Source of the DNA: Deltaproteobacteria bacterium
GTDB taxonomy: Bacteria; Myxococcota_A; UBA796; SXON01
Reading direction: 5' to 3'
Length of the DNA: 64,000 nt
Assembly: GCA_947484175.1 (NCBI GenBank)
Contig: CANKOI010000001.1
Location: forward strand, 19,752-83,751
Of this stretch, positions 32,829 through 61,285 are shown piece by piece (within the stretch, counting starts at the first letter, position 1; the number at the start of each line of letters is the position of its first letter). The translations under genes were made by a program, and so were the position numbers. Below the pieces are notes generated by a model. The model searched no databases, had not been told where the DNA came from, and was given only the letters and a program-made list of their open reading frames with translations.

Positions 32829-33854
32829 ATGAACACCCCCGTCGTCCAGCGCACCATTCCGTTGCCCCCACCGCCCTGGCCCACCCTCGACCCCTTCCTC
32901 TTCTGCGTGCATCACGACGACACGTACCCCCGTGGCAACGAGAAGCTCGGACCGGCCGCATCTCTGGAGGGCAGGGCGCTCGGCCAAGATTTCGCGGAAA
33001 AGGACGGCTGGCGGATGTACCACGGCCAGCGCGTTCCCGGCTTTCCCAGCCACCCTCATCGCGGATTCGAAACCGTCACGCTCGCGCGGCGGGGGCTCAT
33101 TGATCACTCCGACTCCATGGGTGCCACGGCGCGATTCGGGGGCGGCGACGCGCAGTGGATGACGGCCGGCGGCGGTGTGGTGCACAGCGAGATGTTCCCG
33201 CTCGTGAATTCCGAGACCGGCAACCCCACCGAACTCTTCCAGATCTGGCTGAACCTGCCCTCGCGCAGCAAGCGGGTGAAACCCTATTTTGCGATGCTGT
33301 GGAACGACGAGATCCCCCACGTGGTCGTCGAAACCGGAGGGGCGTTCGCGGAGGCCCGAGTAGTGTCCGGACATCTCGGCGGCGCCCATGCCCCGGCCTG
33401 CCCTCCCGACAGTTGGGCCGCCGATCCTCAGAACGACGTGACGATCGCCACCCTGAAGCTCGAAGCCGGCGCGGCCTTCACGTTGCCCCCCGCGCTCGTT
33501 GGTGTTCAGCGGGTCCTCTACTTCTTCGCGGGCACCCAGCTCCGCATCAATGGCCATGCCGCACCGGCGCGCCATGCTCTCCAGCTCTTGGCCAGCGAAC
33601 CAGCGGAGCTGGTGGCGGCCGACGCCTGTGAGCTGCTGGTGCTCCAGGGGCGCCCCATCGGGGAGCCGGTCTGCCAGCACGGCCCGTTCGTCATGAACAC
33701 CCAGAGCGAGGTGCAGCAGGCGTTCGCCGACTACCGCCGCACCCAATTCGGCGGCTGGCCGTGGCCGTCGCCCGAGCCGGTCCACGCGGCCAGCGAAGGC
33801 CGCTTCGCCAAGCACGCCGACGGGCGGGTGGAGCGCCCGGCTAGCTTGGTTTGA
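32829..33854 (+). CDS. Pirin-family protein
   Basis: Cupin metal motif HPHRGFETVT; overall length and bicupin pattern. Confidence 0.85.
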   Translation: MNTPVVQRTIPLPPPPWPTLDPFLFCVHHDDTYPRGNEKLGPAASLEGRALGQDFAEKDGWRMYHGQRVPGFPSHPHRGFETVTLARRGLIDHSDSMGATARFGGGDAQWMTAGGGVVHSEMFPLVNSETGNPTELFQIWLNLPSRSKRVKPYFAMLWNDEIPHVVVETGGAFAEARVVSGHLGGAHAPACPPDSWAADPQNDVTIATLKLEAGAAFTLPPALVGVQRVLYFFAGTQLRINGHAAPARHALQLLASEPAELVAADACELLVLQGRPIGEPVCQHGPFVMNTQSEVQQAFADYRRTQFGGWPWPSPEPVHAASEGRFAKHADGRVERPASLV

Positions 33855-35778
33855 AGCCCGAGTAGACCACCCACCGCCAACAGTCACGGATCGCCCCCGT
33901 GGGGGAGATTTCAAAGGGGTGGATAGCGCGAACCTCCGCGGGACAGTGGTGGTAGAGGTCCCGGATCTGGTGCCGGTGCAACAGGGGGGTTTCCCAGGTG
34001 GCAATCCAATTGTCGATGTCCTCCCACTGCAAGTATTCTTGCTTGGAGAGGTTCACGAACCCCGCCTGTTCCAGCAGCGCGCGCACATCTTCGTCGTAGA
34101 GGTTGTTCACGAACAGGGGCTGTTTCTTCTTCACCACCTGAAACATCCAGGGTCCGTCTACCGCGCCGAAGGGCACCCACTGCCCCACCACGAACTGGCC
34201 ACCGGGCTTGAGCACGCGGAAGATCTCAGCCAGCGGTCGCTCGGGTTGCGGCAGCAGATGCAGCACCTCGCGGTTGCACACGCCATCGAAGCTCGCCTCC
34301 GGGAAAGGGATGTCGTACACATCCCCTAAGACGACCTCGTCGAGACGCTTTCGCGAGAGGGCCACCATCTCCGGCGTGAGGTCGAGCCCCACGATGCGCC
34401 CCACCTTGCCACGGAAGCTTGCCCCGACCACGCCCGAGCCGCAGCACACGTCGAGGAGCACGGCGTCGTCGGCGAGTTGGCTGGAGCCGCCGTGCATCGC
34501 GAGCAGCCCGGCGTTGGTGATCCAGTCGGCCGAGGTGTGCCAGGTCTTCGACCGGATGCCGAATTGCTGCCGGTAGATTTCTTTGTCGACGAGGTGCTCC
34601 ACACGCTCGTACCGAGCGCGCTCGCTGGCCCGCCGCGAAGCGAGGCGGGCACGCCCGGCTTCGACGGCCCGCCCCACGACCGCTGCGGCGTCCGCCGGGT
34701 TGGCGCGCAGCCACGCCGCGAGGGCGACCCCGACCGCCGACTCCACGGCGCGCCCCGCGGGGGGGTCTAGCAGGCGGGTCTTGGTCTGCCCTTCGAAGTG
34801 GGGGTCGGGCATGCGCACCGACAGCACCGCCACGAGGCCCTCGAGGGTGTCGTTCACCTCCAGCGGCTCGGTGCTGTCCAGCAGCCGGGCCTCACGGGCA
34901 TAGCGGGTGAGCGCCTGCCCCACGGCCGCGCGCAGGCCGTCGGCGTGGGCGCCCCCGAGCGGGGTGTACACGTGGTTCACGAAACCCTGAAAGTTCTCGG
35001 CGAAGGCTCGGGTCCACAACAACGCAGCAGACACCTCGTGAGGACCGACCGTCGCCGCCACCGACACCGGCCGGGCGTGCACCCGCTCTTGCCCTTCCGC
35101 CAGCCACGCCGCGAAGCCCGCGATGCCCTCGTCGGAGGAGAAGGTCACTTCGCCGGCGGGGCTCACCAGCCGACAGGACAATCCCGAGCTGAGCCAGCTC
35201 TGGCAGCGCAGCCAGCGCTCCACCGCACCCACGTCGGCGCGCGCGCGCCCGAACACCGCTGGGTCGGCCCGGAAGCGCACCGTAGTGCCCGAACGCGCGG
35301 CGTCTCCCACGCGCACAAAGGGCTCAACGGCGAGCCCTTGGGCCCAGCGGCCGCGCCAGCGACCGCCCTCGCGGCACACCTCCAACTCGAAGGTGGCGGA
35401 GAGCGCGTTCACGCAGGTGAGGCCCACGCCGTGGAGTCCGCCCGGCAGGCGGTAGGCGCCTTCCTGAAATTTCCCGCCCGCGTGCAGCTCCGTGACGAGC
35501 ACTTCCGGGATGCGCATTCCCGTGGGCGGGTACACCTCCACCGGAATGCCGCGCCCGTTGTCACTCACCGCCCACTCGTCGTCCAACCCGAGCACGACGT
35601 GCACTTCGGTGGCCTGCCCGGCGAGCGCTTCGTCGAGCGCGTTCTGGAGCACCTCGATCACCAGCTGCATCACGCCGTCGGGGCCGGTGGAGCCGACGTA
35701 CATCGCCGGCCTCATCCTCACCGCCGCCAGCCCCTTCAGAACAACGATGCTGTCTGCATCGTAGCGCATCTCACCCAT
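33841..35778 (-). CDS. Fusion protein: GyrB-type GHKL ATPase + transducer (43K fragment) fused to a class I SAM-dependent methyltransferase; no TOPRIM/C-terminal domain
   Basis: N-terminus YDADSIVVLKGLAAVRMRPAMYVG, IEVLQNALDEALAG, SDNGRGIP, LHAGGKF, GGLHGVG, FEGQTKTRL, colinear with E. coli GyrB residues about 5-390. From about residue 440, MTase motif I LLDVCCGSGVVG, LDLTPEMV, VLKPGGQFVV. Confidence 0.8.
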   Translation of the reverse strand: MGEMRYDADSIVVLKGLAAVRMRPAMYVGSTGPDGVMQLVIEVLQNALDEALAGQATEVHVVLGLDDEWAVSDNGRGIPVEVYPPTGMRIPEVLVTELHAGGKFQEGAYRLPGGLHGVGLTCVNALSATFELEVCREGGRWRGRWAQGLAVEPFVRVGDAARSGTTVRFRADPAVFGRARADVGAVERWLRCQSWLSSGLSCRLVSPAGEVTFSSDEGIAGFAAWLAEGQERVHARPVSVAATVGPHEVSAALLWTRAFAENFQGFVNHVYTPLGGAHADGLRAAVGQALTRYAREARLLDSTEPLEVNDTLEGLVAVLSVRMPDPHFEGQTKTRLLDPPAGRAVESAVGVALAAWLRANPADAAAVVGRAVEAGRARLASRRASERARYERVEHLVDKEIYRQQFGIRSKTWHTSADWITNAGLLAMHGGSSQLADDAVLLDVCCGSGVVGASFRGKVGRIVGLDLTPEMVALSRKRLDEVVLGDVYDIPFPEASFDGVCNREVLHLLPQPERPLAEIFRVLKPGGQFVVGQWVPFGAVDGPWMFQVVKKKQPLFVNNLYDEDVRALLEQAGFVNLSKQEYLQWEDIDNWIATWETPLLHRHQIRDLYHHCPAEVRAIHPFEISPTGAIRDCWRWVVYSGFKPS

Positions 35779-36235
35779 CCACCGACTCCGCCCGCAGCGC
35801 CGCGATGCGCGCCGCGTGGAACACCCGCAGGCGGCTCACACTCTCAAACCAGCTCCCGATGTCGGAGAACCCCTCGCGTCGGGCCGTGGTGGCCCTCGCC
35901 CCCTGCGCCTCGGCGTCCCGGTCGTAGAACTTCTCCAAGACGGCGAGGTTTTCGCTGGTCGTGCCCGCCCGTGCCCCGAGCAGCGCCTCTCGCGATCTTA
36001 AGAGCAGATCGAGCGTGGTGCTGGCGTTGAGCGCATGCTGTTCGGCCATCTCCCGAAGCGCCCGAGAGGCTTCGCTGCGCCCCTCGATCTCCGCGATGCG
36101 GGCAAACCAGGCGCATTCGGTGGAGGCCACCGCTTCGTCGCGGAGCGCGGCTTCGAGGTGCTCGCGGGTGAGCGCGTCGTCGAGGCGGGGCGCGGCCGAA
36201 CGGGCCGGCGCCGCCGAGGGGGAAGGATCAGGCAT
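35771..36235 (-). CDS. Ferritin/rubrerythrin-like four-helix-bundle protein (metal ligands partly degenerate)
   Basis: 154 aa. Two-fold pattern TREHLEAAL..EA....FARIAEIEG....EMAEQH and TSENLAVLE..ARREGF....ESVSRLRVFH resembling rubrerythrin halves. 8-nt overlap with the downstream gene. Confidence 0.5.
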   Translation of the reverse strand: MPDPSPSAAPARSAAPRLDDALTREHLEAALRDEAVASTECAWFARIAEIEGRSEASRALREMAEQHALNASTTLDLLLRSREALLGARAGTTSENLAVLEKFYDRDAEAQGARATTARREGFSDIGSWFESVSRLRVFHAARIAALRAESVDG

Positions 36236-36240
36236 GGGGT

Positions 36241-37857
36241 TCAGACCGAGACGCTGAACTCGCGCTCGTTCACGCGGCTGAGGGTCACCCCTTCTCCCGC
36301 GGCATAGAGCCCGCGGTAGGCCAGAGCCCCTGGGTCGATGACGCCGCCGGCGCTCGCGAAGGACGCGCGCCAGTCGGTGGTCGGTTCGGGGTCGTAGTAG
36401 GCGAAGTGCTCGGGGAAGTGCTGGAAGTCCATCACCGGCCCGGGCTGGTAGCTATCGTAGAGCCGCTTGTAGCTGCGCCGCATCTTCTCTTCGGGCAGCC
36501 GGTTGTAGTTGATGAACTCGTCGCGTTCGAGCGCCTGCTCCACGGCCAGCCAACGCAGGTGCTCCACTTCGTCGCGGATGGCGCCACTTTGCAGCGAGTC
36601 CCGGTAGACCGTGGTGCCGGGCATGGCCGACAGGTACTTCACGCGCGTGATGTGGTGGTTGTCTTCCGCCCACTCACACATGTGGTCGAGCGAGCCTTCG
36701 TCCTCCTCGGGCAGGCCGACGATCGTGAGGCCGCCGTAGCGCACGCCTGCGTCCCACGTGTTTTTCATCGCCTTGTAGACCAAGTTCTCCGTGCTCCCCT
36801 TCCGGGCCATCTTGAGCGCCGCCTTGCCCAGAGACTCCACGCCGTAAAGCGCGATGTCGCAGCCCGCCGTGCCCATCGCGGCCGCCACTTCCGCGTCCAC
36901 ATCGGCGTTGCGGGTGAGACAGGTCCAACGCAGGTCCTGATCCCGAATCACGTCGAGGTATTCCAAGGTCTGCGGCTTGTGCGCGGTGAAGGTGAGGTCG
37001 ACGAAGAAGACAAAGTCGATGTCGTACTTCCGCTTGTACTCCGCCAGCTCGGCGTGCAACTTCTGCGGACTCTTCACGCGCTCCTGAGGGGTGGTGCGGT
37101 AGCAGAAGGAGCAGTCCATCTTGCAGCCGCGGCTGTAGCTGGCGATGATCTGCTTTTGGAGCCCGCGTGGGTCGCGCGACTGTGGCCAGAGATCGAGGTT
37201 CATCGCAGGCAACGAATCCAGGTTGGGCATCTGTCCGCGCGGCGCGGTCTGATGCACGGCGCCTTGGGCATCACGGAACCAGATTCCCTTGATCTCGGGC
37301 AGCCGCGCGCCCCACAGCCCGCTGGCGAAGGCCTCCATCACCTCGAGGATGGTGAGCTCACCCTCGGAGATCACGGCCACGTCGGCCGCCGTTTCGCGCA
37401 TGAAGACGTGGGGCACCGACGTGACGAGCGAACCTCCCAACACGATCGGGAGCCGCGGGCGCGATGCCTTCACCTCGCGGATCAGCTGCTCCAAGAAGGG
37501 GTAGCAGTCCTCGTAGGTGGCGAGCCCCAGGATGTCGCAGCCCTCCATGATCTGGCGGTAGGCCGACTCCAACGGCGCGCGGTCGTACCGAACATCGATG
37601 ATCCGCACCGGGTAGCCGGCGTTGTGAAGCACGGTGGCGATGTACGAAATGCCCTCGTACGGGGAGGTGAGAAAGAACTCCCAGCCGCGGGGCATGGTGA
37701 ACGGTGAGGGGCCCACGACGAGCGCGATGCTGGGCAGCTGCCGATTGGTGGAAACGGGACTGGCGGCCTGCTGGGCCATCAGGTCCATCAGCTGCTGATC
37801 GGTGCGACCGTTGGCCACGGCGTACAGGGCGGGGTCGAGCGAAGGGACGTAGGCCAA
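36241..37857 (-). CDS. B12-binding-domain radical SAM protein (class B type)
   Basis: TTG start at 37857 preceded by GAGGAG with a 5-nt spacer. N-terminal Rossmann-like B12 domain (IALVVGP..GISYIATVL..DILGL). CxxxCxxC as RGCKMDCSFCY. No SPASM Cys clusters. Confidence 0.8.
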   Translation of the reverse strand: MAYVPSLDPALYAVANGRTDQQLMDLMAQQAASPVSTNRQLPSIALVVGPSPFTMPRGWEFFLTSPYEGISYIATVLHNAGYPVRIIDVRYDRAPLESAYRQIMEGCDILGLATYEDCYPFLEQLIREVKASRPRLPIVLGGSLVTSVPHVFMRETAADVAVISEGELTILEVMEAFASGLWGARLPEIKGIWFRDAQGAVHQTAPRGQMPNLDSLPAMNLDLWPQSRDPRGLQKQIIASYSRGCKMDCSFCYRTTPQERVKSPQKLHAELAEYKRKYDIDFVFFVDLTFTAHKPQTLEYLDVIRDQDLRWTCLTRNADVDAEVAAAMGTAGCDIALYGVESLGKAALKMARKGSTENLVYKAMKNTWDAGVRYGGLTIVGLPEEDEGSLDHMCEWAEDNHHITRVKYLSAMPGTTVYRDSLQSGAIRDEVEHLRWLAVEQALERDEFINYNRLPEEKMRRSYKRLYDSYQPGPVMDFQHFPEHFAYYDPEPTTDWRASFASAGGVIDPGALAYRGLYAAGEGVTLSRVNEREFSVSV

Positions 37858-37935
37858 TGAGACTCCTCAGCCAAGCTGAGTGGAAGCGTACCGGTCGGCC
37901 CCGCGGCCGTCAACCCGATCCGCGCTGGAGCGGCC

Positions 37936-39357
37936 TCAGAATACAGTGATGTGCTCTTCCGCGACGCCGAGGTAGCGGTTGGGGTCGGTGTTCATCCCGC
38001 CCATCCACGTGCGGATGTCTTGCTCCAGCTCGTAGGCGGTGCGCGGGTCGGTTTCACTGAGGTCGGTGCTCTCCTGCGGGTCGGCGCCGAGGTCGTGCAG
38101 CTGCTTCTGGCCGTCCGCGAGGTCGAGGATCAGCTTCTTGCCATCGCGGGTGCGAGCCCGCAGGTGGACAAAGAGGCGGTAGTCCGATTCGGCGTAGATC
38201 GGCAGGTCGACCTGCTCGCCCCGCAAGAGCGGCAGGAGGCTCTTGCCGTCGATGTCCGGGGGCGGGGCCACCCCGAGCGCGTCGAACAGCGTGGGGAAGG
38301 TGTCCAAGGTGCGCACCGGCGTGTCGACCACCCGCGCTCCTTCGCCGCCCGGAAACCGAATCATCAGCGGCACGTGCAGCTGGTGCTCGCAGATCGTCGC
38401 CCCGTGGTCGAGGTAGCCGTGTTCCATGAACTCCTCGCCGTGGTCGGCCAGCACCACCACGAGGCTCTTGTCCATGAGCCCCAGCTCGCGCACGCGGGCG
38501 AAGAACAGCCCGAGCCGCTCATCGGCCTCGCGCACCTTCTGCTGGTACACCTTCAGCAGGATGGCCGCATCTTCGGGCGAGATGTCCCCCTTGGCGGGAT
38601 CGCCCGGCTTCACAATCGCGGCGAGGCCGGCCTCGCGGAGCTTCGCCTGCTGCTCGATGCTCCCGTCGATCGTGCCCTGGTAGTCGGGGGCGAGCTCCGC
38701 GACCGTCTTGGTCATCGGGTGCTGGCCGTGAACGTCGTAGCCGTGGAAGAACATCAGGAAGTGGTGGTCGGCGTTGGCGCTGAGCCACTCCATGGCGGGG
38801 GGGCCGGAGTAGTCCATCCCCGCGAACACCTTGTCGTCGAGGTAGGTGGTGAAGCCACGGTTGTAGCCGAACTTCCCGGAAATGCCGGCGCCCCCCGTGA
38901 AGGCGACCGCCTCCCAGCCCTGTTTGCTCAGCTCCTCCGGCAACAGCGGGATCGTGTCCTTCAGGCGGTCGAGGACGAGCTCCTTGCCTCCCGCCGGATC
39001 GGGCACGAGCTTGTTGACCACACCGTGGTGGGAGGGCCAACGTGCAGTGAAGATCGCCATGTGGGCGGGCACTGTCCAGGGCGCGGGAGACGTGGCGTTG
39101 GAGAAGGCTACGGCCTCCTTCTGAAAGGCGTCGAGGTTGGGGGTGAAGGTGCCACCGCCGAGACCCGTGTGGTCGAAACGCAGGGCATCCATGCTCACCA
39201 CGATCACGTTCAGCGCCGAGGCGCGCGCGGCGTAGTCGAACGACGGCCCCTTGGGGGCGGACGGCTTGGCCGCAGGCGAGGCCCCCGCGGGAGGCTCCTC
39301 CGCGGCGCAGGCGGCGGCAAACAACAGCGCGGTGAGGGCAAAGGGCAGGACGCGCAT
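37936..39357 (-). CDS. Sulfatase-like (alkaline-phosphatase superfamily) hydrolase/transferase lipoprotein
   Basis: ATG 39357 after GGAG gives MRVLPFALTALLFAAAC. Metal site VVSMDALRFDH. Nucleophile region PWTVPAHMAIFTARWPSHHG (Thr type, no C/S-x-P-x-R). Later LADHGEEF. Confidence 0.75.
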   Translation of the reverse strand: MRVLPFALTALLFAAACAAEEPPAGASPAAKPSAPKGPSFDYAARASALNVIVVSMDALRFDHTGLGGGTFTPNLDAFQKEAVAFSNATSPAPWTVPAHMAIFTARWPSHHGVVNKLVPDPAGGKELVLDRLKDTIPLLPEELSKQGWEAVAFTGGAGISGKFGYNRGFTTYLDDKVFAGMDYSGPPAMEWLSANADHHFLMFFHGYDVHGQHPMTKTVAELAPDYQGTIDGSIEQQAKLREAGLAAIVKPGDPAKGDISPEDAAILLKVYQQKVREADERLGLFFARVRELGLMDKSLVVVLADHGEEFMEHGYLDHGATICEHQLHVPLMIRFPGGEGARVVDTPVRTLDTFPTLFDALGVAPPPDIDGKSLLPLLRGEQVDLPIYAESDYRLFVHLRARTRDGKKLILDLADGQKQLHDLGADPQESTDLSETDPRTAYELEQDIRTWMGGMNTDPNRYLGVAEEHITVF

Positions 39358-39424: not shown

Positions 39425-41833
39425 CTACTTGCCTTCGAAGTCGCCGTCGGCATCCCCAGGAGGCTCGGCGCCACCAGGCCCCGACGCCCGTCCCATCGAC
39501 CAAAGGGTGGCAAATCCGAGGGGGATGAGGATGAAGCCCCCGAGGGTCACCGCCACCTCGCCGAGCAACACCAGGAGCCCCAGCGAACGGATGCCCTGCG
39601 AGGAGCCCAACGACAGCGCCGCGAAGGCCACGACGGTCGTGGAGGTTCCCAAGGCACTCGCCCACCCCGTCGTGGACAACGACTTGATCACGCCTCCCGG
39701 TCCTTCCTCCTCGAACCGGTGGATCAAGTGGATCATCACATCGATGCCGATGCCCAGCACAATGGGCACACCGACGAAGTTCACCATCGAGATCTTGATG
39801 CCCGTCATCACCAGCAGCGCCACCCACCACGCCACGCCCGCCAACAGCACAGACATCGCGCCCGCCACGGCCCACACCCGCCTTAGGTCGAGCGAGGTGA
39901 AGAACAAGACGAGGCAGAAGGCCACCGCGGCGATGATGGGGGCGTCCCGGTGCATGAGGCGGAAGAGCACGCCGAGGGTCACGTACTCGCTGGCGATCAC
40001 GGTATCGGGGAACTCACGCTCCATCACTTCGGTGAGGTGGTAGGCCTCCCGCATGTCCCACATGTTGCCGGACGGCACCATCAACATCCGGTGGCGGCCA
40101 CCGAGCGCGCCGAGGGCGTGCTGAACGCCGCGGGGCAGTTCGCTGGCGCTCATCACATGCGGGTCGGCCGCCGACACGCGCTTCAAGTTCTCGCGCACGG
40201 CGGCGGGGAGAAACGCCGTGTTGGGGTCAGCCGACAGTTGCGCGAGGTCTCGCAGCACCTCCACTCGCTCCGCCTGATCTTCCGGCAGAATGGACCGGAT
40301 CGACAACACTTGGGTGATCTCGGGAAGCTTACCGGCTTGCACCTTTTTGCTCACCCGCGCGACCGCTGCGTTGAGCTCCCCTTCGGAGGCGTAGCTGATC
40401 ACCAAGGGGGCGTAGCTCTCGCGGGCGAGCGCCTGTTGACGAGGGGTGAGGTCGGCGTAGGCGAGCCCCTGCCGCCGGAGCTCCGAAAGATCGAACTCAA
40501 ACTCCACGTTCCTCACGAAGAGGCCCGCCACGATCGTAAAACCGGCGAGGAGCGTGAGCGTCATTGGCGCGAGGTGGTACACCGCGGGCAGCTTTCGTCC
40601 GCGAAGTCCAGAGCGGGCCGTGCGGCTCAACGGCCCCCGACGGTCGAGCCACACCACGAGGAGGGGCATCAACAGCATCTCGGCAATGAGCGTGAGCACC
40701 AGCCCCAAGGACAAGAGCCAACCGAGCTGCCGGAACCCGGCAAAGTGCGCGAACAAGAGCGCCGCGAACCCCGCCGAACTGGTGAGCGCGGCGCTGGTGC
40801 ACGCGCCGCCTACGAGGTCCCATGCCCGGACCACAGCGTCCTCGATCGAGTCGCCCGCCTCCACACACTCTCGGATTCGAGCGTAGAGGTGCACCCCGAA
40901 CTCCACGCCGAGCCCGATGAGCACGGCATTCACGAAGCTGGTGAAGGTGTTCAGCCCACCCACCGTGGCCCCGGCGATGCCGAGCGTCCACAGATTGCTC
41001 AGCGCCAGCGGGATGAAGATCACGGCGAGCGCGCGCGGCGTGCGGAACGCGAGCGTAATGATGAAGAGGACGAGGACCAGGCTGGCCGCGGTCGTGGTGA
41101 AGATGTCCTCGACGATGGCTTCGTAATCCTCGACGTTGTGCCGGTAGGCGCCGCCCTTCCACACCACGCTCACGGTCGGATGGTGCGCTTCGACCACCGC
41201 GAGGTGTTCATCCACGCGCTTCATGAACTGAGCGGCGAAGGGCAGGTCGTGAGCGGAGCCACGCGGCCGCACGATCATGCGGGCCACGCCGGACTCCGAG
41301 ACCAACTTCAGGTCGTCGTCCCCCTGCTGGAGCTTCTCGGTAAGGGAACCGAGATCGAGCACGCTCGCCGCGATCAGGGGGTTCGCGAGCGCGGACCCGA
41401 GCGTGGTGGCGCTCTGCACCCGGTCCCGGATGGTGGTGAGCTCCTCGACGGAGAGCGAGAGCAGGCCGAGCTTGAACGCAGTGTCGGGGTCGATCCGGTA
41501 GAGGACGTAGTCCACATCGGGGTCGGCTTCGAGGAGGCCTTGAAGCTCCCCCATGAACGCGTCGCGAGCCACCGGGTCTTCCGCCTCGGCGGCGATGGTG
41601 AGCACGTTTACCCCGCCCTCCTCGGCGTCGAGGCTCGCCAAGGCCTTCGTGGAAGGCTCCTCGCTCGGCATCAGGTGCAGGATGTCGCTGTCCACCCGCA
41701 CCCGGGACGCGAACCCAGCGGCCACCGCGGAGACGGCCGCAAGGAGCAGCAGCAGCAGCAGCTTGTGGTCGAGAACCCAACGGGCCAGACGGCCGTAGAA
41801 GCCCCGCGGAGTGTAGGACATGGTCGCGCGCAT
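39425..41833 (-). CDS. RND-superfamily MMPL-type exporter (two 6-TM bundles, two periplasmic loops)
   Basis: In-frame ATG 41833 or 41821 (MRATMSYTPRGFYGRLARWVLDHKLLLLLLLAAV). Duplicated TM bundles with the SSD-like pattern. The upstream 119 codons of the track ORF are non-coding-like. Confidence 0.75.
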   Translation of the reverse strand: MRATMSYTPRGFYGRLARWVLDHKLLLLLLLAAVSAVAAGFASRVRVDSDILHLMPSEEPSTKALASLDAEEGGVNVLTIAAEAEDPVARDAFMGELQGLLEADPDVDYVLYRIDPDTAFKLGLLSLSVEELTTIRDRVQSATTLGSALANPLIAASVLDLGSLTEKLQQGDDDLKLVSESGVARMIVRPRGSAHDLPFAAQFMKRVDEHLAVVEAHHPTVSVVWKGGAYRHNVEDYEAIVEDIFTTTAASLVLVLFIITLAFRTPRALAVIFIPLALSNLWTLGIAGATVGGLNTFTSFVNAVLIGLGVEFGVHLYARIRECVEAGDSIEDAVVRAWDLVGGACTSAALTSSAGFAALLFAHFAGFRQLGWLLSLGLVLTLIAEMLLMPLLVVWLDRRGPLSRTARSGLRGRKLPAVYHLAPMTLTLLAGFTIVAGLFVRNVEFEFDLSELRRQGLAYADLTPRQQALARESYAPLVISYASEGELNAAVARVSKKVQAGKLPEITQVLSIRSILPEDQAERVEVLRDLAQLSADPNTAFLPAAVRENLKRVSAADPHVMSASELPRGVQHALGALGGRHRMLMVPSGNMWDMREAYHLTEVMEREFPDTVIASEYVTLGVLFRLMHRDAPIIAAVAFCLVLFFTSLDLRRVWAVAGAMSVLLAGVAWWVALLVMTGIKISMVNFVGVPIVLGIGIDVMIHLIHRFEEEGPGGVIKSLSTTGWASALGTSTTVVAFAALSLGSSQGIRSLGLLVLLGEVAVTLGGFILIPLGFATLWSMGRASGPGGAEPPGDADGDFEGK

Positions 41834-41914: not shown

Positions 41915-42622
41915 ATGTCCTTCACCCCCGCCCAGCGCGACGCCCTGATTCTCGACCACGTCGCGCTGGTCCGGATCATCGCGGGCCGCCTCGCGCGGCG
42001 CCTCCCGAGCAGCGTGGATGTCGACGAGCTCGTGAGCGTGGGCACCGTGGGACTGATCGACGCGATCGACCGCTTTGATCCCGAGCGCGGCGTGCCCTTC
42101 AAGGGTTTCGCCGACCTGCGTATTCGCGGCGCGATGGTGGACTACCTGCGCGGGATCGACCCGGTTTCTCGTGCGGTCCGGCGGAAGCACAACGCCCTCG
42201 AAGCGAAACGAACGGAGCTGAGGAACCGCCTCGGGCGCGCACCCACCCGCGAAGAGATGGCCCGCGGCCTCGAGCTCCAGCCTCAGGCCTACGACGACAT
42301 GGTCGACGCCGCCCTGCTCTTCAGCGTGGTGAGCAGCGACACCCCGCTAGACGAAGACGCCGGCACGACGATCGGGGACCAGCTCTCGGGGCAGGAGACG
42401 AACGTCGAGGACGCCTGGGTGGCTCGAGAACTCACGGCCGAGATGCTGGCCGCCCTCGAAAACCTCCCGGAGCGCGAGCGTATCGTCGTGACCAAATTCT
42501 ATCTGGAGAGTCGCACGCTCAAGGAGATCGGGTCCGAGTTGGCGGTGACCGAGTCCCGCGCTTGTCAGATCGCGAAGGCGGGCACCGCTCGGATGCGAGT
42601 ACGCCTACTCCCCGGGCAGTAA
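41915..42622 (+). CDS. FliA/WhiG-family (sigma-28 type) RNA polymerase sigma factor
   Basis: Only the last 235 codons of track ORF 39950..42622 are coding. LVRIIAGRLARRLPSSVDVDELVSVGTVGLIDAIDRFDPERGVPFKGFADLRIRGAMVDYLR. Region 4.2 LKEIGSELAVTESRACQI. Confidence 0.85.
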   Translation: MSFTPAQRDALILDHVALVRIIAGRLARRLPSSVDVDELVSVGTVGLIDAIDRFDPERGVPFKGFADLRIRGAMVDYLRGIDPVSRAVRRKHNALEAKRTELRNRLGRAPTREEMARGLELQPQAYDDMVDAALLFSVVSSDTPLDEDAGTTIGDQLSGQETNVEDAWVARELTAEMLAALENLPERERIVVTKFYLESRTLKEIGSELAVTESRACQIAKAGTARMRVRLLPGQ

Positions 42623-51639: not shown

Positions 51640-52847
51640 GGAAGTTTGGCCAGGGCCTTTTGAGCCGCAGAGTTGTCGGAGACACGGACCGCCTCGGTGT
51701 AGGCCGCGCGGGCATCTTCCACGCGAGACTCACGCGCGTAGAGCAGACCCAGCCGATACCACGCTTGGCCGCGGTAGTCCGGCTGCACCTCTGGAAAGCC
51801 CACATACCGCTTGAAGGAAGCTTCGGCTTCAGGGAACGCTCGCTTTCGCGCGTACACCACGCCTAGGTGGTAGTGGGTGCGCTGGTTGTCGGGCGCGACC
51901 GTAAGCACCTCCTGGTACATCTTCACGGCTTCGTCGTAGCGGGCCATGCTGGTGAGCACCCGACCGGCGGTGAGGTTGTTGATCACGTTGTCGGGGTACT
52001 TCAGCCGTCCGTACATCACTCGCCCGAGCGCGTTGCGCAGGTCGTTGTCCTCGATGTAGCTGTAGGTGAGCGCGAGGGTGGCGGCCGGGCCCATCAGCAC
52101 CCCGTCCTTCTCGACTCGGCGAATGAGATCCTTGCCGGCCGCCCGATCATCGGCACCGTCAGGGATGAGTGCCGTGGTCCTCGCCACCACGGTCCGCCAG
52201 TACATGTACATTCCGTCGCCCATCAACGGGTCGACGAAGTCCGGAGCCGCCCGTTTGGCCTCGACCAGGGAGGTGACACAGTCGTACCCGTGGCCGATGG
52301 CGGAGAGGAACTGCCCTCGCCGCATGTCGTGAATTCCCTGAATGCCCGACATGCCGGCTTGGAGAAAGTACTCGATGGGCTCGTTGCCAGGGCTGCGGAG
52401 GCCCTCGGAGATCTGAGCCAAGGCGGCGCTGTGTGCGGCCCGGTACTCCTGCTCGTATCGAAAGTCGAAGTTTTCGAACATCAAGGCCTGATAGATCACG
52501 GCCATCCCTGCAGGACCGATGCCGGTCGTGGGCGAGTCGACGGTGAGCGCCTCCAGCTCGCGCTTGGCGTCTTTGTACTTCCGGGCGTAGATGAGGTCGA
52601 CAGCGCGGCGGCAGCGGTCGGCGAAGACAATGTCGACCTTCAACACCTCGGCCGCCGCGTACGAGAGCGCCGGGTAGGCGAGGCCGCCTGAGTCCACCAC
52701 GATGGGCGGCGGCAGATCGAGCGGCAGCTCTCCCGCCGGCGTGGCCACTCCTCCCACCGTGTTCTCTCGGAGCGCGTCGGACGGATCCTCTCCGGCCAGC
52801 GCAGCTCCGAACACCGTCAAGCCCACGAAGAAGGAGGGAAAGCTCAC
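51636..52847 (-). CDS. TPR-repeat protein (secreted)
   Basis: GTG start overlapping the gshB stop (GTGA). Signal FFVGLTVFGAALAG. C-terminal TPR motifs (AWYRLGLLYA, YHLGVVYA). Confidence 0.7.
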   Translation of the reverse strand: MSFPSFFVGLTVFGAALAGEDPSDALRENTVGGVATPAGELPLDLPPPIVVDSGGLAYPALSYAAAEVLKVDIVFADRCRRAVDLIYARKYKDAKRELEALTVDSPTTGIGPAGMAVIYQALMFENFDFRYEQEYRAAHSAALAQISEGLRSPGNEPIEYFLQAGMSGIQGIHDMRRGQFLSAIGHGYDCVTSLVEAKRAAPDFVDPLMGDGMYMYWRTVVARTTALIPDGADDRAAGKDLIRRVEKDGVLMGPAATLALTYSYIEDNDLRNALGRVMYGRLKYPDNVINNLTAGRVLTSMARYDEAVKMYQEVLTVAPDNQRTHYHLGVVYARKRAFPEAEASFKRYVGFPEVQPDYRGQAWYRLGLLYARESRVEDARAAYTEAVRVSDNSAAQKALAKLP

Positions 52848-53782
52848 GTACGGGATTCCCAGCGGCGCACCGCCGCGTCGAGCAGGCGAGCCTCAAGCAC
52901 GACCCCATCGAAGGCGTTGATCTCTTGCAGGCCCGTTGGGCTCGTCACGTTGATTTCGGTGAGCCAGTTCCCGATCACGTCGATCCCTACGAACAGCATG
53001 CCCTCAGCGCGGAGCGTTGGCCCGATCCGCGCACAAATCTCGTGTTCCCGCGCCGTGAGGGTGGTGGCGTGGGCCGTGGCCCCGACATGCAGGTTGCCGC
53101 GGTGGTCTCCCGGCCCGGGCACCCGGAGCACGGCGCCAGCGGGCTCTCCGTCGATGAGGATGATTCTCTTGTCGCCCTGCACGATCTCGGGAAGGTAGCG
53201 CTGAGCGAGGATGTAGCGCCGGCCTTCGTCGCTGAGCACTTCGATCATGGAACGTAAGTTGGGGTCGCCCGCTCGCGTCACCAACACCCCGCGCCCGCCG
53301 TTTCCGTCCCACGGCTTGAGCACCACCCGGTCGGGTTGGGAAGCCACGAACTCCACGATTCGCCGCACGTCGGCGCTGATGAGCGTCGGGGGTGTCAGGT
53401 CCGTGAGCGCCGCAGCGAACAGCTTTTCGTTGCGGGCGCGCAGGGCAGCCGGCGCGTTGAGTACGACGGTATCCACACCCACGAGATCGAGCAGGTACGT
53501 GGAAAAGATGTAGCTCATGTCGAACGGAGGGTCCTTCCGCATCCACACCAGCTGAAAACTCGAGAGCTCCTGTTCCGCCCATTCGGCCGGCTCGAAACCA
53601 GCCACGGTGGTCACCACGCGTTGGCAGCGCGCCTTCGTTCGCCCGCCCTCCGCCCACATCCAGCTCGGGTGGCACCACCAAACCTCCCAGCCGCGACGGC
53701 TGCTCTCCCGCATCAGTGCGTAGGTGGAATCGCCCGCAATGTTGATCGAGCCGATCGGGTCCATCACAAAAATCGAACGCAT
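52844..53782 (-). CDS. gshB: Glutathione synthetase (ATP-grasp)
   Basis: Colinear with E. coli GshB: VMDPIGSINI..DST, MRKDPPFD, NEKLF, KPWDGNGG, GDKRIILIDGEP, RGNLHVG, EINVTSPTG. Confidence 0.9.
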   Translation of the reverse strand: MRSIFVMDPIGSINIAGDSTYALMRESSRRGWEVWWCHPSWMWAEGGRTKARCQRVVTTVAGFEPAEWAEQELSSFQLVWMRKDPPFDMSYIFSTYLLDLVGVDTVVLNAPAALRARNEKLFAAALTDLTPPTLISADVRRIVEFVASQPDRVVLKPWDGNGGRGVLVTRAGDPNLRSMIEVLSDEGRRYILAQRYLPEIVQGDKRIILIDGEPAGAVLRVPGPGDHRGNLHVGATAHATTLTAREHEICARIGPTLRAEGMLFVGIDVIGNWLTEINVTSPTGLQEINAFDGVVLEARLLDAAVRRWESRT

Positions 53783-53791
53783 GCCCCCCCT

Positions 53792-55069
53792 TTACTTGCC
53801 GATGCAGAAGCGTGCGAACAGGCGATCGAGCACCGCCTCCCGCACGGTGGAACCGCTGAGTTCCGCCAGAGCCTCCAACGCGGCGTAGCCCAGCTCCACC
53901 GCTACGGCCGCCCCCGCGTGCGGCAGCACGTTGGCCGCCTCTTGGAGGGAACGCCCCACCCGAGCCAACAGCTCCGCCTGCCGCGCGCTGGTCAGCACCA
54001 CCTCCGCGCTACCCGGCGCCTCGCCGCGAAGCGCGACGAGGATGGCCCCGCGCACGGCGTCCATCCCTTCCCCCGTGAGCGCAGACACGGCCAAGACTCC
54101 GGAAGGAGGCGCGCCCACATCGCACATCGTGCCCACCCGCAGCTCCCCTTCTCGTTCCGCAGGCGTCCTCGCGCCCGGCGGGATGCAGCGCACCACGAGG
54201 TCGGCGCCGCGGGACTCCACACGCGCCTGTTCGATGCCTTCGGCCTCGATCGCGTCGGTAGCCTCACGCTCCCCTGCGGTATCGACCAGGGTGAGCCTCG
54301 CGGCCTCAAGCTGCAGCGGGGACTCCACTGCGTCACGGGTGGTGCCGGCCTGCGGGGAGACGATCGCGCGCTGTCGCCCGAGCAGCGCATTGAACAGACT
54401 CGACTTTCCCGCGTTCACCGGCCCCGCGAGCACCACGCGGGCGCCTTCGACCGCCACCCGCCCGGCGCGCCATGAGTCGGCCAGGCGAGCCGCCTGAACG
54501 GCCAAACGGTGCAGCCTCTCTGCCAGCGCACCATCGCTGCCTACGAGCAGGTCCTCGCCCGGGTAGTCGAGCACCGCTTCGAGCTCCGCGCACACGTCGA
54601 TCAGCTCGGCGCGAAGCGACTCCACGGCCTCGTGGAGTCGACCGTCGAGACCCCCACGGGCGAGCTCGATCCCCACGCCCGAGCGCGCCTCGATGGTGGC
54701 GAGCACGGCCTCCGCGCGTAGGAGGTCCATGCGGCCGGCGAGAAAGGCCCGACGGGTGAACTCGCCGGGGCGCGCGAGGCGAGCGCCCAGCGCGCGCAGC
54801 AGCCGCTCCACCAAGAGGGGGTTGCCGTGCCCGGCCAGCTCGACCACGTCCTCGCCGGTGTAGCTGCGCGGCCCCGGGAACACGGTCACCACGCCCTCGT
54901 CGAACACGCCCGCCTCGTCACGGAAGCGGCGCAGGCCGGCCCGTCGGGGGGCTGGCAATTCGCCGACCACCTGAGCCGCAAGCTCCTGCGCCTCTGGACC
55001 CGACAGGCGCACGACGGCAATCGCCGCGTGCCCCCACGCCGTGGCGCAGGCCGCGATCGTGTCGTTCAC
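53792..55069 (-). CDS. mnmE: tRNA modification GTPase MnmE
   Basis: GTG start after GAGGA. DTIAACAT, G1 GPVNAGKS, G2 GTTRD, G3 DTAG, C-terminal FCIGK. Confidence 0.9.
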   Translation of the reverse strand: MNDTIAACATAWGHAAIAVVRLSGPEAQELAAQVVGELPAPRRAGLRRFRDEAGVFDEGVVTVFPGPRSYTGEDVVELAGHGNPLLVERLLRALGARLARPGEFTRRAFLAGRMDLLRAEAVLATIEARSGVGIELARGGLDGRLHEAVESLRAELIDVCAELEAVLDYPGEDLLVGSDGALAERLHRLAVQAARLADSWRAGRVAVEGARVVLAGPVNAGKSSLFNALLGRQRAIVSPQAGTTRDAVESPLQLEAARLTLVDTAGEREATDAIEAEGIEQARVESRGADLVVRCIPPGARTPAEREGELRVGTMCDVGAPPSGVLAVSALTGEGMDAVRGAILVALRGEAPGSAEVVLTSARQAELLARVGRSLQEAANVLPHAGAAVAVELGYAALEALAELSGSTVREAVLDRLFARFCIGK

Positions 55070-55080
55070 CGCATCCTCGC

Positions 55081-57589: not shown

Positions 57590-57819
57590 GAAAGCTCCCG
57601 CGGCGGGGGAAGCGGCACGGGGTCGAACCCGCCCGCGTGAAGCGGGTGACACCGGCAGATGCGCTTCGCGCCCAACCACCCACCCTGCAGGGGGCCCCAC
57701 GCGCGGATCGCCTCGGCCGTGTACCGACTGCAGCTCGGATAGAACCGACACATCGGGGGCATGAACCGTGAAACGAGCCGTTGCCAGCCGCGAATTAGGG
57801 TGAGGAGGAACCAGGTCAT
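57586..57819 (-). CDS. yidD: Membrane protein insertion efficiency factor YidD
   Basis: 77 aa. [24 protein letters not shown] motif. Confidence 0.9.
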
Positions 57820-58172: not shown

Positions 58173-58299
58173 GGCGCTTGCGGCCCTTGGTGCGCCGACG
58201 AGCGAGCACGTTGCGGCCGGCCGGCGTGGCCATGCGGGCGCGGAAACCGTGGGTGCGCTTGCGGCGCTTGTTGTGGGGCTGAAAGGTGCGCTTGGACAT
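58141..58299 (-). CDS. rpmH: 50S ribosomal protein L34
   Basis: Manual translation of the minus strand: [52 protein letters not shown]. Below the ORF-track length cutoff. Confidence 0.95.
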
Positions 58300-61276: not shown

Positions 61277-61285
61277 GGAGAGCTC

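What the first reader, a model, noticed from the sequence alone, without database searches (positions are those of the whole stretch)
33841..37857. Candidate novel three-gene operon: class-B (B12) radical SAM + ferritin/rubrerythrin-like protein + GyrB-ATPase::methyltransferase
The three minus-strand genes are separated by 5 nt and by an 8-nt overlap. The first has a strong GAGGAG-5 nt-TTG initiation site. It has a cobalamin-binding N-domain plus CxxxCxxC (CKMDCSFC) and no SPASM clusters, the layout of class-B radical SAM methylases (HpnP/HpnR, Fom3, GenK, TsrM types). Together with a conventional SAM methyltransferase, a possible diiron four-helix bundle and an ATP-driven dimerising clamp, this reads as a multi-step (double methylation/oxidation) modification machine. 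None of the proteins has a signal peptide. I cannot map the combination onto any described pathway or defence system. The substrate could be a nucleic acid (suggested by the GyrB clamp) or a lipid/metabolite (suggested by the MMPL exporter and sulfatase-like lipoprotein immediately upstream on the same strand).
Basis: inference. Interest (0 to 1): 0.75.

Follow-up and report, generated by a model that had tools for sequence, protein, structure and literature searches.

The report
Homologue of nucleocidin sulfamoylation gene module
The three tightly packed genes are real and strongly conserved, but they are not an unknown system: they are counterparts of nucJ, nucQ and nucP, which Streptomyces needs to build the sulfamate (-O-SO2-NH2) group of the antibiotics nucleocidin and ascamycin. 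Here they sit in a myxobacterium-like chromosome without the rest of that pathway nearby.

Summary
Three minus-strand genes, with a 5-nt gap and an 8-nt overlap, encode a B12-binding radical SAM protein, a rubrerythrin-like protein, and a GyrB 43-kDa ATPase fused to a class I methyltransferase.

The claim that they map to no described pathway does not hold. They are 59%, 34% and 48% identical to NucJ, NucQ and NucP of the Streptomyces virens nucleocidin cluster. They also match AcmJ, AcmQ and AcmP of the ascamycin cluster. Published knockouts of nucJ, nucQ and nucP each abolish sulfamoylation. The biochemistry is unsolved.

Across 82 loci from several phyla, the rubrerythrin-like gene sits directly upstream of the fusion gene in 72 of 73 testable cases. 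The radical SAM gene is within 10 kb in 36 of 40. Many loci carry the full cassette: NucL methyltransferase, NucK and NucO sulfotransferases, and the NucN DDAH-fold protein.

The window is a short form with NucJ, NucQ, NucP and an exported NucI/G-like hydrolase. NucK, NucL, NucN and NucO are absent from all 64 kb. The genes are under purifying selection.

The rubrerythrin-like protein has lost most diiron ligands, so an oxidation role is unsupported. No evidence supports a nucleic-acid, lipid or defence role.

Verdict: a new member of a known kind, of moderate interest.

The parts
36241..37857 (-). NucJ/AcmJ orthologue: B12-binding-domain radical SAM protein, 538 aa, TTG start. B12-binding domain at about 37342-37653, radical SAM core at about 36667-37137, CKMDCSFC at 37102-37125.
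   Evidence: Pfam PF02310 and PF04055. 59% identity over 541 aa to S. virens NucJ, 669 bits. Best NCBIfam hit is HpnJ at 123 bits against a cut-off of 578.
37855..37868 (-). Ribosome-binding site GAGGAG (37863-37868), 5-nt spacer, TTG start codon (37855-37857) of the NucJ-like gene.
   Evidence: Read directly from the sequence. The N-terminus aligns from residue 6 to NucJ residue 5, which supports this start.
35771..36235 (-). NucQ/AcmQ orthologue: 'pseudo-rubrerythrin', 154 aa, an erythrin-type four-helix-bundle homologue with a degenerate diiron site and no rubredoxin domain.
   Evidence: PDB erythrins and sulerythrin at E 1e-10 to 1e-7. 34% identity to NucQ, E 5e-10. Family alignment of 65 sequences: the helix-B ExxH is lost and the second ExxH glutamate is K/R in 64 of 65. 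Lies directly upstream of the fusion gene in 72 of 73 loci.
35771..35778 (-). 8-nt overlap ATGGGTGA, comprising the start of the NucP-like gene and the stop of the NucQ-like gene. This implies translational coupling.
   Evidence: The same architecture is ATGAGTGA for nucQ/nucP (supplement of PMC10946740) and ATGACTGA in Streptomyces locus L076. Overlaps of 1-8 nt occur in the called genes of L002, L003, L005, L007, L088, L091 and L094.
33841..35778 (-). NucP/AcmP orthologue, 645 aa: GyrB 43-kDa fragment (ATPase plus transducer, residues 4-390, about 34609-35769) fused to a class I SAM methyltransferase of the YcgJ/UbiE type (residues about 396-645, 33844-34593). No Toprim domain and no GyrA-binding tail.
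   Evidence: Pfam and NCBIfam. 48% identity over the full length to S. virens NucP. AF2 model pLDDT 89.6, superposing on E. coli and M. tuberculosis GyrB43 at TM 0.93-0.94, rmsd 2.0 A. Invariant in 53 family members: E42, N46, D73, G77, K103, Y109, G114-G119, Q331, K333; the methyltransferase residues L442, D443, C445, C446, G447, G449 (S448 near-invariant); and many basic residues in the methyltransferase lid.
37936..39357 (-). Alkaline-phosphatase-superfamily ('sulfatase'-family) lipoprotein, distantly related to NucI and NucG. Threonine sits at the nucleophile position (APWTVPAH), and there is an N-terminal lipoprotein signal. It is conserved directly upstream of the NucJ-like gene in the window's clade.
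   Evidence: Pfam Sulfatase and Phosphodiest. 25% identity to NucI (E 2e-26) and 27% to NucG (E 8e-16). Sits immediately upstream of the radical SAM gene on the same strand in 13 loci. Signal peptides occur in the Gram-negative orthologues but not in the actinomycete ones.

Best explanation
The operon is a short form of the 'sulfamylation sub-cluster' known from the nucleocidin (nuc) and ascamycin (acm) gene clusters. It has a NucJ-like cobalamin-domain radical SAM enzyme, a NucQ-like pseudo-rubrerythrin and a NucP-like GyrB-clamp::methyltransferase. An exported NucI/G-like alkaline-phosphatase-superfamily hydrolase precedes them.

Shown by others, genetically: each of nucJ, nucQ and nucP is required to install the 5'-O-sulfamoyl group from a PAPS-derived sulfur. 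None is required for nucleoside assembly or fluorination.

Shown here:
- Orthology to the nuc genes.
- A Q-P gene pair that is essentially invariant and translationally coupled.
- An intact GHKL ATPase site and N-terminal dimerisation arm in P.
- An intact SAM/adenosine-binding motif in P's Rossmann domain.
- A lost diiron site in Q.
- Purifying selection on all three genes.

Inferred mechanism:
- P is an ATP-gated homodimer, like GyrB43, that works as a stoichiometric complex with Q. Q serves as a structural adaptor, not an oxidase.
- P, Q and the radical SAM enzyme J together form the ATP/SAM/cobalamin-dependent half of sulfamoyl assembly.
- The sulfotransferase/DDAH-fold trio (NucK, NucO, NucN) forms the sulfur-nitrogen half and must be encoded elsewhere in this genome.
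- Neither known product carries an added methyl group. The two methyltransferase-fold units (P and NucL) and J therefore probably act transiently, or use SAM or adenosine as a bound ligand, rather than leaving a methyl mark.
- ATP hydrolysis in P most plausibly pays for activating the sulfo intermediate or for a gated hand-over.
For: Orthology:
- BLASTP to S. virens Nuc proteins gives J 59% over 541 aa, P 48% over 645 aa, and Q 34% at E 5e-10.
- Locus L094 is the nuc cluster. Its proteins contain the peptides encoded by published primers, VINRYAAAH in NucP and QADTASW in NucQ.

Literature:
- Knockouts of nucI, G, J, K, L, N, O, Q and P each abolish sulfamylation. [quoted passage not shown]
- The acm gene table gives matching sizes: 557, 155 and 658 aa (PMC4257720).

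Synteny:
- Q lies upstream of P in 72 of 73 loci.
- Of 40 loci with at least 7 kb on both sides, J is present in 36, NucL in 31, NucK in 24, NucO in 27 and NucN in 23.
- The gene order J-K-L-Q-P-O in Streptomyces loci L076 and L081 is identical to nuc.

Fusions:
- A natural P-L fusion exists, P0025.
- An APS-kinase::NucO fusion exists, P0313, which ties the family to PAPS.

Functional integrity:
- ATPase and SAM-motif residues are invariant.
- The fold matches GyrB43.
- dN/dS is 0.075-0.21.
Against: - NucK, NucO, NucN and NucL are absent from all 64 kb of the window. They are also absent within 10 kb in the 90%-identical relative L091. The end product here may therefore not be a sulfamate.
- 15 of 40 well-flanked loci lack the complete NucK/O/N trio (14 lack all three; L067 retains NucO only).
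- The window's NucI/G-like protein is an exported lipoprotein, unlike the cytoplasmic actinomycete proteins, and is only 25-27% identical to them.
- No PAPS-synthesis or nucleoside-tailoring gene was found among the window ORFs scanned against Pfam, which were a sample rather than every ORF.
- No biochemical activity has been shown for any J, Q or P protein. The mechanistic roles proposed here are inference.
Confidence: 0.7

Rival explanations
1. J, Q and P (with or without NucL) form an autonomous ATP/SAM/cobalamin machine. In short-form genomes such as this one it makes or modifies something other than a sulfamate. Sulfamate pathways merely recruited it.
For: - 15 of 40 well-flanked loci lack the complete NucK/O/N trio (14 lack all three; L067 retains NucO only) and one (L079) has only Q and P.
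- The window lacks K, O, N and L across 64 kb.
- J, Q and P remain under purifying selection in two short-form genomes.
- Q-P is the only invariant pair.
Against: - Short and long forms are interleaved in the P tree. The window nests among JKON-bearing sisters L009, L014 and L017. This fits rearrangement better than a separate functional class.
- A related Myxococcota contig carries NucK-NucO with no Q-P within 10 kb, so the pathway can be split across a genome.
- The only experimental phenotype for J, Q and P is loss of sulfamylation (PMC10946740).
Confidence: 0.2
2. One reading: a new nucleic-acid modification or defence machine in which the GyrB clamp captures DNA for methylation.
For: - The GyrB43 clamp is complete, including the dimerisation arm and the QTK loop.
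- There is a weak PADLOC hit of the methyltransferase domain to mad2 at 52 bits.
Against: - The methyltransferase is a small-molecule YcgJ/UbiE type. It is not a DNA methyltransferase.
- No PADLOC system matches.
- The locus lies in origin-proximal housekeeping DNA and not on a mobile island.
- It is orthologous to genes whose deletion specifically removes a sulfamoyl group from a nucleoside antibiotic.
Confidence: 0.03
3. A lipid (hopanoid- or sterol-type) modification pathway whose product is exported by the adjacent MMPL transporter.
For: - The best NCBIfam hits are HpnJ for the radical SAM protein and HpnN/BstA for the MMPL protein.
- The genes share a strand with short gaps.
Against: - Scores are far below the cut-offs: 123 against 578, and 192 against 752.
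- MMPL is found next to the cluster in none of the other loci.
- The 90%-identical relative has GDSL lipases at that position instead.
- No cyclase or other hopanoid gene was detected among the window ORFs scanned against Pfam.
Confidence: 0.04
4. A GyrB decoy or self-resistance protein that binds a GyrB-ATPase inhibitor and methylates it. Alternatively, a RiPP pathway with a B12-radical SAM C-methylase.
For: - The ATP/aminocoumarin pocket residues, including R136, are conserved.
- There are weak hits to RiPP radical SAM proteins ApyD and TIGR03975.
Against: - Nucleocidin and ascamycin target translation, not gyrase. Deleting nucP abolishes sulfamylation.
- No conserved small precursor ORF was found in 82 loci.
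Confidence: 0.03

Closest known systems
NucJ/NucQ/NucP (nucleocidin cluster, Streptomyces calvus and S. virens) and AcmJ/AcmQ/AcmP (ascamycin cluster, Streptomyces sp. JCM9888)
   Same: - The three protein families and domain architectures are the same.
- Identities are 59%, 34% and 48%.
- The Q-P 8-nt start/stop overlap is the same.
- An alkaline-phosphatase-superfamily 'sulfatase' accompanies them, as NucI and NucG do.
   Different: - The host is a Myxococcota-like Gram-negative organism, not an actinomycete.
- The sulfotransferases NucK and NucO, the DDAH-fold NucN and the methyltransferase NucL are not in the 64-kb window.
- No nucleoside-tailoring genes are present.
- The sulfatase-like protein is an exported lipoprotein.
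- The product is unknown.
DNA gyrase subunit B, N-terminal 43-kDa fragment (E. coli 1EI1, M. tuberculosis 3ZKB)
   Same: - About 40% identity.
- TM 0.93-0.94 and rmsd 2.0 A.
- All ATP-binding and hydrolysis residues, the QTK loop and the N-terminal strap are present.
   Different: - There is no Toprim domain and no GyrA-interacting tail. A methyltransferase domain replaces them.
- The protein scores 361 bits against a 740-bit subfamily cut-off.
- It is not a topoisomerase subunit.
Cobalamin-domain radical SAM enzymes: HpnJ, BchE, ApyD, AprD4, TokK
   Same: An N-terminal B12-binding domain plus a CxxxCxxC radical SAM core, with no SPASM domain.
   Different: - Every equivalog cut-off is missed by a factor of four or more.
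- The nearest profiles are non-methylating enzymes.
- The substrate and reaction are unknown.
Erythrin/sulerythrin (single-domain rubrerythrins, e.g. 4DI0, 1J30)
   Same: Homologous four-helix-bundle sequence of the same length, at E 1e-10.
   Different: - The helix-B ExxH motif is lost.
- The second ExxH glutamate is replaced by K/R family-wide.
- There is no rubredoxin domain.
- The protein is unlikely to bind a diiron centre.
YcgJ/BH2331/UbiE-type class I methyltransferases (1XXL, 1VL5)
   Same: - Full-length match including the C-terminal lid.
- Canonical motif I is present (LDVCCGSG).
   Different: - The domain is fused to a GHKL clamp.
- It is paralogous to the stand-alone NucL (about 30% identity).
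- The methyl acceptor, if any, is unknown.

Membership tests
Nuc/Acm sulfamylation sub-cluster (NucJ-NucQ-NucP module) | Orthology of all three proteins to NucJ, NucQ and NucP | tested here: met
   59%, 34% and 48% identity with full-length alignments for J and P. Each Nuc protein finds only its counterpart in the window.
Nuc/Acm sulfamylation sub-cluster (NucJ-NucQ-NucP module) | Q immediately upstream of P with overlapping stop and start codons | tested here: met
   ATGGGTGA in the window against ATGAGTGA in nuc. Q is upstream of P in 72 of 73 loci.
Nuc/Acm sulfamylation sub-cluster (NucJ-NucQ-NucP module) | Presence of the sulfotransferases NucK and NucO, the DDAH-fold NucN and the methyltransferase NucL in the same locus | tested here: not met
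   No hit anywhere in the 64-kb window. They are present in sister loci L009, L014 and L017. Whether they lie elsewhere in the genome cannot be told.
Nuc/Acm sulfamylation sub-cluster (NucJ-NucQ-NucP module) | Alkaline-phosphatase-superfamily 'sulfatase' partners (NucG, NucI) | tested here: inconclusive
   One such gene lies directly upstream, with E 2e-26 to NucI and 8e-16 to NucG. Identity is only 25-27%, and the protein carries a lipoprotein signal that the Nuc proteins lack.
Nuc/Acm sulfamylation sub-cluster (NucJ-NucQ-NucP module) | A sulfamate-bearing product; dependence on PAPS | not testable with these tools
   This needs metabolite analysis and the whole genome. The only indirect support is an APS-kinase::NucO fusion elsewhere in the family.
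DNA gyrase subunit B / type IIA topoisomerase ATPase subunit | GHKL ATPase plus transducer domain with catalytic residues | tested here: met
DNA gyrase subunit B / type IIA topoisomerase ATPase subunit | Toprim domain and C-terminal GyrA-binding region; a score reaching the family cut-off | tested here: not met
   The alignment to the GyrB models stops at residue 390. The score is 361 bits against a cut-off of 740-882. Residues 396-645 are a methyltransferase.
Class B (cobalamin-dependent) radical SAM methylases (HpnP/HpnR, Fom3, GenK, TsrM, PhpK) | B12-binding domain plus a CxxxCxxC radical SAM core | tested here: met
Class B (cobalamin-dependent) radical SAM methylases (HpnP/HpnR, Fom3, GenK, TsrM, PhpK) | Membership of a characterised methylase family, or evidence of methyl transfer | tested here: not met
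   HpnR scores 55 bits against 650, PhpK 69 against 600, TsrM 14 against 500. The best hits are the non-methylases HpnJ, BchE and AprD4. Nucleocidin and ascamycin carry no added methyl group (established structures, from the literature).
Rubrerythrin / diiron four-helix-bundle proteins | Homologous four-helix-bundle sequence | tested here: met
   E 1.4e-10 to 4DI0 and E 2e-7 to sulerythrin.
Rubrerythrin / diiron four-helix-bundle proteins | Complete set of Glu/His diiron ligands (two ExxH motifs plus further Glu residues); rubredoxin domain | tested here: not met
   In helix B, ExxH becomes H..N in the window and G/H/S..N across the family. The E128 equivalent is K/R in 64 of 65 sequences. There is no rubredoxin domain.
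Formylglycine-dependent sulfatases | C/S-x-P-x-R motif at the nucleophile position | tested here: not met
   The window protein has T-V-P-A-H, and NucI and NucG likewise have T at that position. The pattern resembles the Thr-nucleophile phosphodiesterase/transferase branch, a comparison I make from my own knowledge of that family.
Known anti-phage defence systems | Match to a PADLOC system model | tested here: not met
   Only weak generic methyltransferase and radical SAM hits were found.

The most novel reading that the evidence does not exclude
The Q-P pair, with J, may be a self-sufficient ATP-gated machine. Its three SAM-binding units would not act as methyl donors. They would instead handle the adenosyl moiety or a transient intermediate.

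On this reading, the cassette that is widespread in Myxococcota, Bdellovibrionota, Elusimicrobiota, Gemmatimonadota and many actinomycetes would make 5'-O-sulfamoyl-adenosine-type toxins, which hijack aminoacyl-tRNA synthetases, directly from SAM or adenosine and PAPS. Short forms like this window would make a different, undescribed 5'-modified or sulfur-containing product.
Probability: 0.2. Interest if true: 0.75.

Novelty: new member of a known kind. Interest (0 to 1): 0.45.

Why it matters
- **Annotation.** These proteins are labelled 'DNA gyrase subunit B', 'DNA topoisomerase (ATP-hydrolyzing)', 'recombinase RmuC' or 'methyltransferase domain-containing protein' in public databases. This can mislead gyrB-based marker analyses. 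It can also mislead resistance-guided genome mining that treats a second gyrB as a self-resistance gene.

- **Distribution.** Natural sulfamates have so far been reported only from actinomycetes (PMC9113183). The same cassette occurs in at least 143 species representatives across several phyla. It is very common in Streptomyces; one S. griseus cluster alone holds 192 member sequences. Sulfamate or related chemistry may therefore be much more widespread than known.

- **Constraints on the open mechanism.** How the S-N bond of sulfamates is made is unknown. The comparative data offer constraints for experiments:
  - Q-P is the invariant core.
  - The genes fall into a J/L/Q/P group and a K/O/N group.
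  - P-L and APS-kinase-O fusions exist.
  - The pseudo-rubrerythrin has lost its metal site.

Tried and rejected
- **Defence system.** PADLOC scan of eight cassette proteins gave nothing meaningful.

- **RiPP pathway.** Clustering all small ORFs (25-130 aa) around 82 loci found no conserved precursor.

- **Arsenic link.** I considered organoarsenical metabolism because of weak ArsM-like hits and an ArsP-family permease next to the Streptomyces locus. I dropped this once the nuc and acm match was found.

- **Hopanoid or sterol link.** Scores are far below cut-offs and the MMPL gene is not conserved.

- **Literature.** First searches on GyrB, methyltransferase, radical SAM and rubrerythrin, and on self-resistance, returned nothing relevant. 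The match came only after the extended neighbourhood (sulfotransferases plus a DDAH-fold protein) suggested sulfamoyl-nucleoside clusters. A search for newer biochemical work on NucJ, NucP and NucQ found none in the held library.

- **Missing genes elsewhere in the genome.** I tried to learn whether the window organism carries NucK/O/N elsewhere, by searching NucO-like proteins and looking up their contigs. I found a related contig with NucK-NucO unlinked from Q-P. I could not tie any contig to this organism.

- **Authentic gyrB.** I looked after dnaA-dnaN-recF for an in-window comparison. It is not in the window.

- **Promoter and terminator scan.** Uninformative.

- **Structure of Q with an alignment.** Not attempted, because the homologues I hold come from loci, which the structure tool does not accept.


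Full report
**1. The observation**

- 36241-37857: 538 aa, TTG start.
- 35771-36235: 154 aa.
- 33841-35778: 645 aa.

The first two are 5 nt apart. The last two overlap by 8 nt, reading ATGGGTGA. A GAGGAG box lies 5 nt before the TTG start.

Pfam gives the following:
- First protein: a B12-binding domain (residues 69-172) plus a Radical_SAM core (241-397, containing CKMDCSFC).
- Third protein: DNA_gyraseB plus HATPase_c (residues 4-390), followed by a Methyltransf_11 domain.
- Middle protein: no hit.

The middle protein does match single-domain rubrerythrins and sulerythrins in the PDB at E 1e-10 to 1e-7. The window is about 68% G+C throughout. The locus lies in ordinary origin-proximal chromosome. 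Nearby genes are dnaA, dnaN, recF, yidC, mnmE and gshB.

**2. The fusion protein**

The GyrB part is not a vague GHKL domain. It scores 361 bits against the GyrB subfamily models, and the alignment stops at residue 390.

An alignment of 53 full-length family members (48-90% identical to the window protein) has these columns invariant:
- E42, N46, D73, G77, K103, Y109.
- The ATP-lid glycines G114-G119.
- Q331 and K333 of the QTK loop.
- Nearly invariant: Y6 and I11 of the N-terminal dimerisation strap.

The AlphaFold model has mean pLDDT 89.6. It superposes on the E. coli and M. tuberculosis GyrB 43-kDa fragments at TM 0.93-0.94 and rmsd 2.0 A, with about 40% identity.

The Toprim domain and the GyrA-binding tail are replaced by a class I methyltransferase. 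That domain's closest solved relatives are YcgJ and BH2331, followed by a range of small-molecule N-, O- and C-methyltransferases. Motif I (LDVCCGSG) and a long C-terminal lid rich in invariant Arg, Lys, His and Trp residues are conserved. So this is an ATP-operated dimerising clamp joined to a SAM-binding Rossmann domain. It is not a topoisomerase subunit.

**3. The rubrerythrin-like protein**

I aligned 65 family members and compared them with the erythrin alignment:
- The first ExxH motif is lost. The window has H..N, and the family has G/H/S..N.
- The glutamates of the third helix are not conserved.
- The glutamate of the second ExxH is Lys or Arg in 64 of 65 sequences.
- Only one Glu of helix A, one Glu of helix B and the last His are kept.

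There is no rubredoxin domain. A diiron oxidase role is therefore not supported.

**4. Neighbourhoods**

The fusion family is large. More than 600 clusters at 90% identity score E below 1e-100.

A pattern scan of one genome per species found 143 species, and 80 loci were fetched. They come from:
- Myxococcota, including Sorangium.
- Bdellovibrionota.
- Elusimicrobiota.
- Gemmatimonadota.
- Armatimonadota.
- 'Wallbacteria'.
- Actinomycetes.

I clustered all ORFs of these loci, then searched with HMMs built from the clusters. Results:
- The rubrerythrin-like gene (Q) lies directly upstream of the fusion gene (P) in 72 of 73 loci with enough upstream DNA.
- Among 40 loci with at least 7 kb on both sides:
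  - The radical SAM gene (J) is present in 36.
  - A stand-alone 250-aa methyltransferase paralogous to P's C-terminal domain (L) is present in 31.
  - A Sulfotransfer_3/1 protein (K) is present in 24.
  - A 450-aa protein with a weak Sulfotransfer_3 match (O) is present in 27.
  - A DDAH/arginine-deiminase-fold protein (N) is present in 23.
  - A sulfatase-family protein is present in 17.

Many loci carry L-J-Q-P-K-O-N as one compact, same-strand block, for example L053, L064, L065 and L085.

**5. Identification**

That gene set pointed to sulfamoyl-nucleoside clusters, and the literature confirmed it.

- In the ascamycin cluster, acmJ (557 aa), acmK (356), acmL (250), acmN (319), acmO (444), acmP (658, 'DNA topoisomerase II') and acmQ (155, 'rubrerythrin') have the same sizes and annotations (PMC4257720).
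- The authors call these nine genes a 'sulfamylation sub-cluster'. [quoted passage not shown]
- They state that the roles of these enzymes and the origin of the amine remain unknown (PMC10946740).

I retrieved the S. virens cluster as locus L094. Its proteins contain the peptides encoded by the published knockout primers: VINRYAAAH in NucP and QADTASW in NucQ.

Identities of the window proteins to the S. virens proteins:

| Window protein | Nuc protein | Identity | Span or E-value |
|---|---|---|---|
| J | NucJ | 59% | 541 aa |
| P | NucP | 48% | 645 aa |
| Q | NucQ | 34% | E 5e-10 |
| 'Sulfatase' | NucI | 25% | E 2e-26 |
| 'Sulfatase' | NucG | 27% | E 8e-16 |

The 8-nt Q/P overlap is also shared:
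- ATGAGTGA in nuc.
- ATGACTGA in Streptomyces locus L076.
- ATGGGTGA in the window.

**6. What is particular about the window**

It is a short form. No homologue of NucK, NucO, NucN or NucL, nor of NucM, NucV or NucPNP, exists anywhere in the 64 kb. The 90%-identical relative L091 also lacks the sulfotransferase and DDAH-fold genes (K, O, N) and a stand-alone methyltransferase (L) within 10 kb.

Several points bear on whether this means the pathway is incomplete:
- In a tree of P, short and long forms are interleaved. The window nests among sisters L009, L014 and L017, which carry K-O-N next to the operon.
- A related Myxococcota contig has K-O with no Q-P within 10 kb. The B12-radical SAM gene near it is a different family, 22% identical to the window's J. 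So the pathway can be split across a genome.
- J, Q and P are under purifying selection between the two short-form genomes, with dN/dS of 0.11, 0.21 and 0.075.

The upstream alkaline-phosphatase-superfamily gene is directly upstream of J in 13 loci of this clade. In the Gram-negative loci it carries a lipoprotein or membrane signal, which the actinomycete NucI-type proteins lack. It has Thr where sulfatases have the formylglycine Cys or Ser.

The MMPL gene further upstream is found next to the cluster in no other locus. I do not count it as part of the system.

**7. How it probably works**

Established by genetics in Streptomyces: J, Q and P are each needed to turn a PAPS-derived sulfur into the 5'-O-sulfamoyl group.

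Shown here:
- P has everything a GyrB43 clamp needs to bind and hydrolyse ATP and to dimerise.
- P's Rossmann domain keeps the SAM/adenosine-binding motif.
- Q has lost its metal site and is always co-encoded with P, usually translationally coupled.
- A natural P-L fusion (P0025) and an APS-kinase::NucO fusion (P0313) exist.
- The genes fall into two recurring groups, J/L/Q/P and K/O/N.

Inferred:
- P2 with Q is an ATP-gated complex. Together with the radical SAM enzyme it supplies the energy-requiring, SAM/cobalamin-dependent half of sulfamoyl assembly.
- K/O/N handle sulfo transfer and nitrogen delivery.
- J's nearest profiles are non-methylating enzymes: HpnJ, BchE and AprD4. Neither nucleocidin nor ascamycin carries an added methyl group.
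- I therefore think persistent methylation is unlikely. Either methylation is transient, or the SAM-binding units handle the adenosyl part. This last step is speculation and is testable from the SAM co-products.

**8. Verdict**

- The interpretation as an unmapped, novel system is not.
- This is a new, phylogenetically distant and reduced member of a known but biochemically unsolved gene module.
- Its value lies in correcting annotation, in showing how widespread the module is outside actinomycetes, and in the comparative constraints it offers for solving sulfamate biosynthesis.

Noticed in passing
window 39425-41833 (-): An MMPL/RND-type transporter lies immediately upstream on the same strand. 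It gives weak HpnN/BstA-like hits. It is found next to the cluster in none of the other 80-plus loci, so it is probably not part of the conserved system, though it could export the product here.
   Followed up: partly
window 41915-42622 (+): A sigma-70 family factor (regions 2, 3 and 4) is transcribed divergently from the MMPL gene across an 81-nt gap. It may be a local regulator.
   Followed up: partly
window 52844-62359: An origin-proximal housekeeping block: gshB, mnmE, yidC, dnaA (58522-59883), dnaN and recF. The authentic gyrB does not follow recF within the window.
   Followed up: partly
window 13945-14862 (+): A C-5 cytosine DNA methyltransferase gene. No partner restriction gene was looked for.
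   Followed up: no
protein P0025 (900 aa, metagenomic): A natural fusion of a NucP-like protein with a NucL-like methyltransferase (65% identical to NucL). This argues that P and L act together.
   Followed up: partly
protein P0313 (667 aa, metagenomic): An APS kinase fused to a NucO-like protein (46% identical to NucO). This ties the weakly sulfotransferase-like NucO family to PAPS supply.
   Followed up: partly
L095 8995-11290 and 13567-15246: A related Myxococcota contig carries NucK-NucO with no Q-P within 10 kb. A different B12-radical SAM protein, only 22% identical to the window's NucJ-like protein, lies nearby. The pathway can be dispersed, and a second radical SAM protein may take part, as with AcmH.
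   Followed up: partly
L032 1-2434: This is the only locus of 73 in which no rubrerythrin-like gene precedes the fusion gene. A repeat-rich (D-S/D-A) secreted protein sits there instead.
   Followed up: partly
L076 12234-14422 (Streptomyces sp. NBRC 110035): An ArsP_1-family permease and a DUF1980 protein follow the NucO-like gene in a Streptomyces cassette with nuc gene order. That cassette has no NucN, NucV or NucPNP nearby, so it may be a cryptic sulfamate-type cluster with a different acceptor.
   Followed up: no
loci L015, L026, L035 and others: Several high-G+C Myxococcota-like MAG contigs in the species-representative collection carry implausible organism names in their record titles, such as Bifidobacterium breve, Klebsiella pneumoniae and Enterobacterales.
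   Followed up: no
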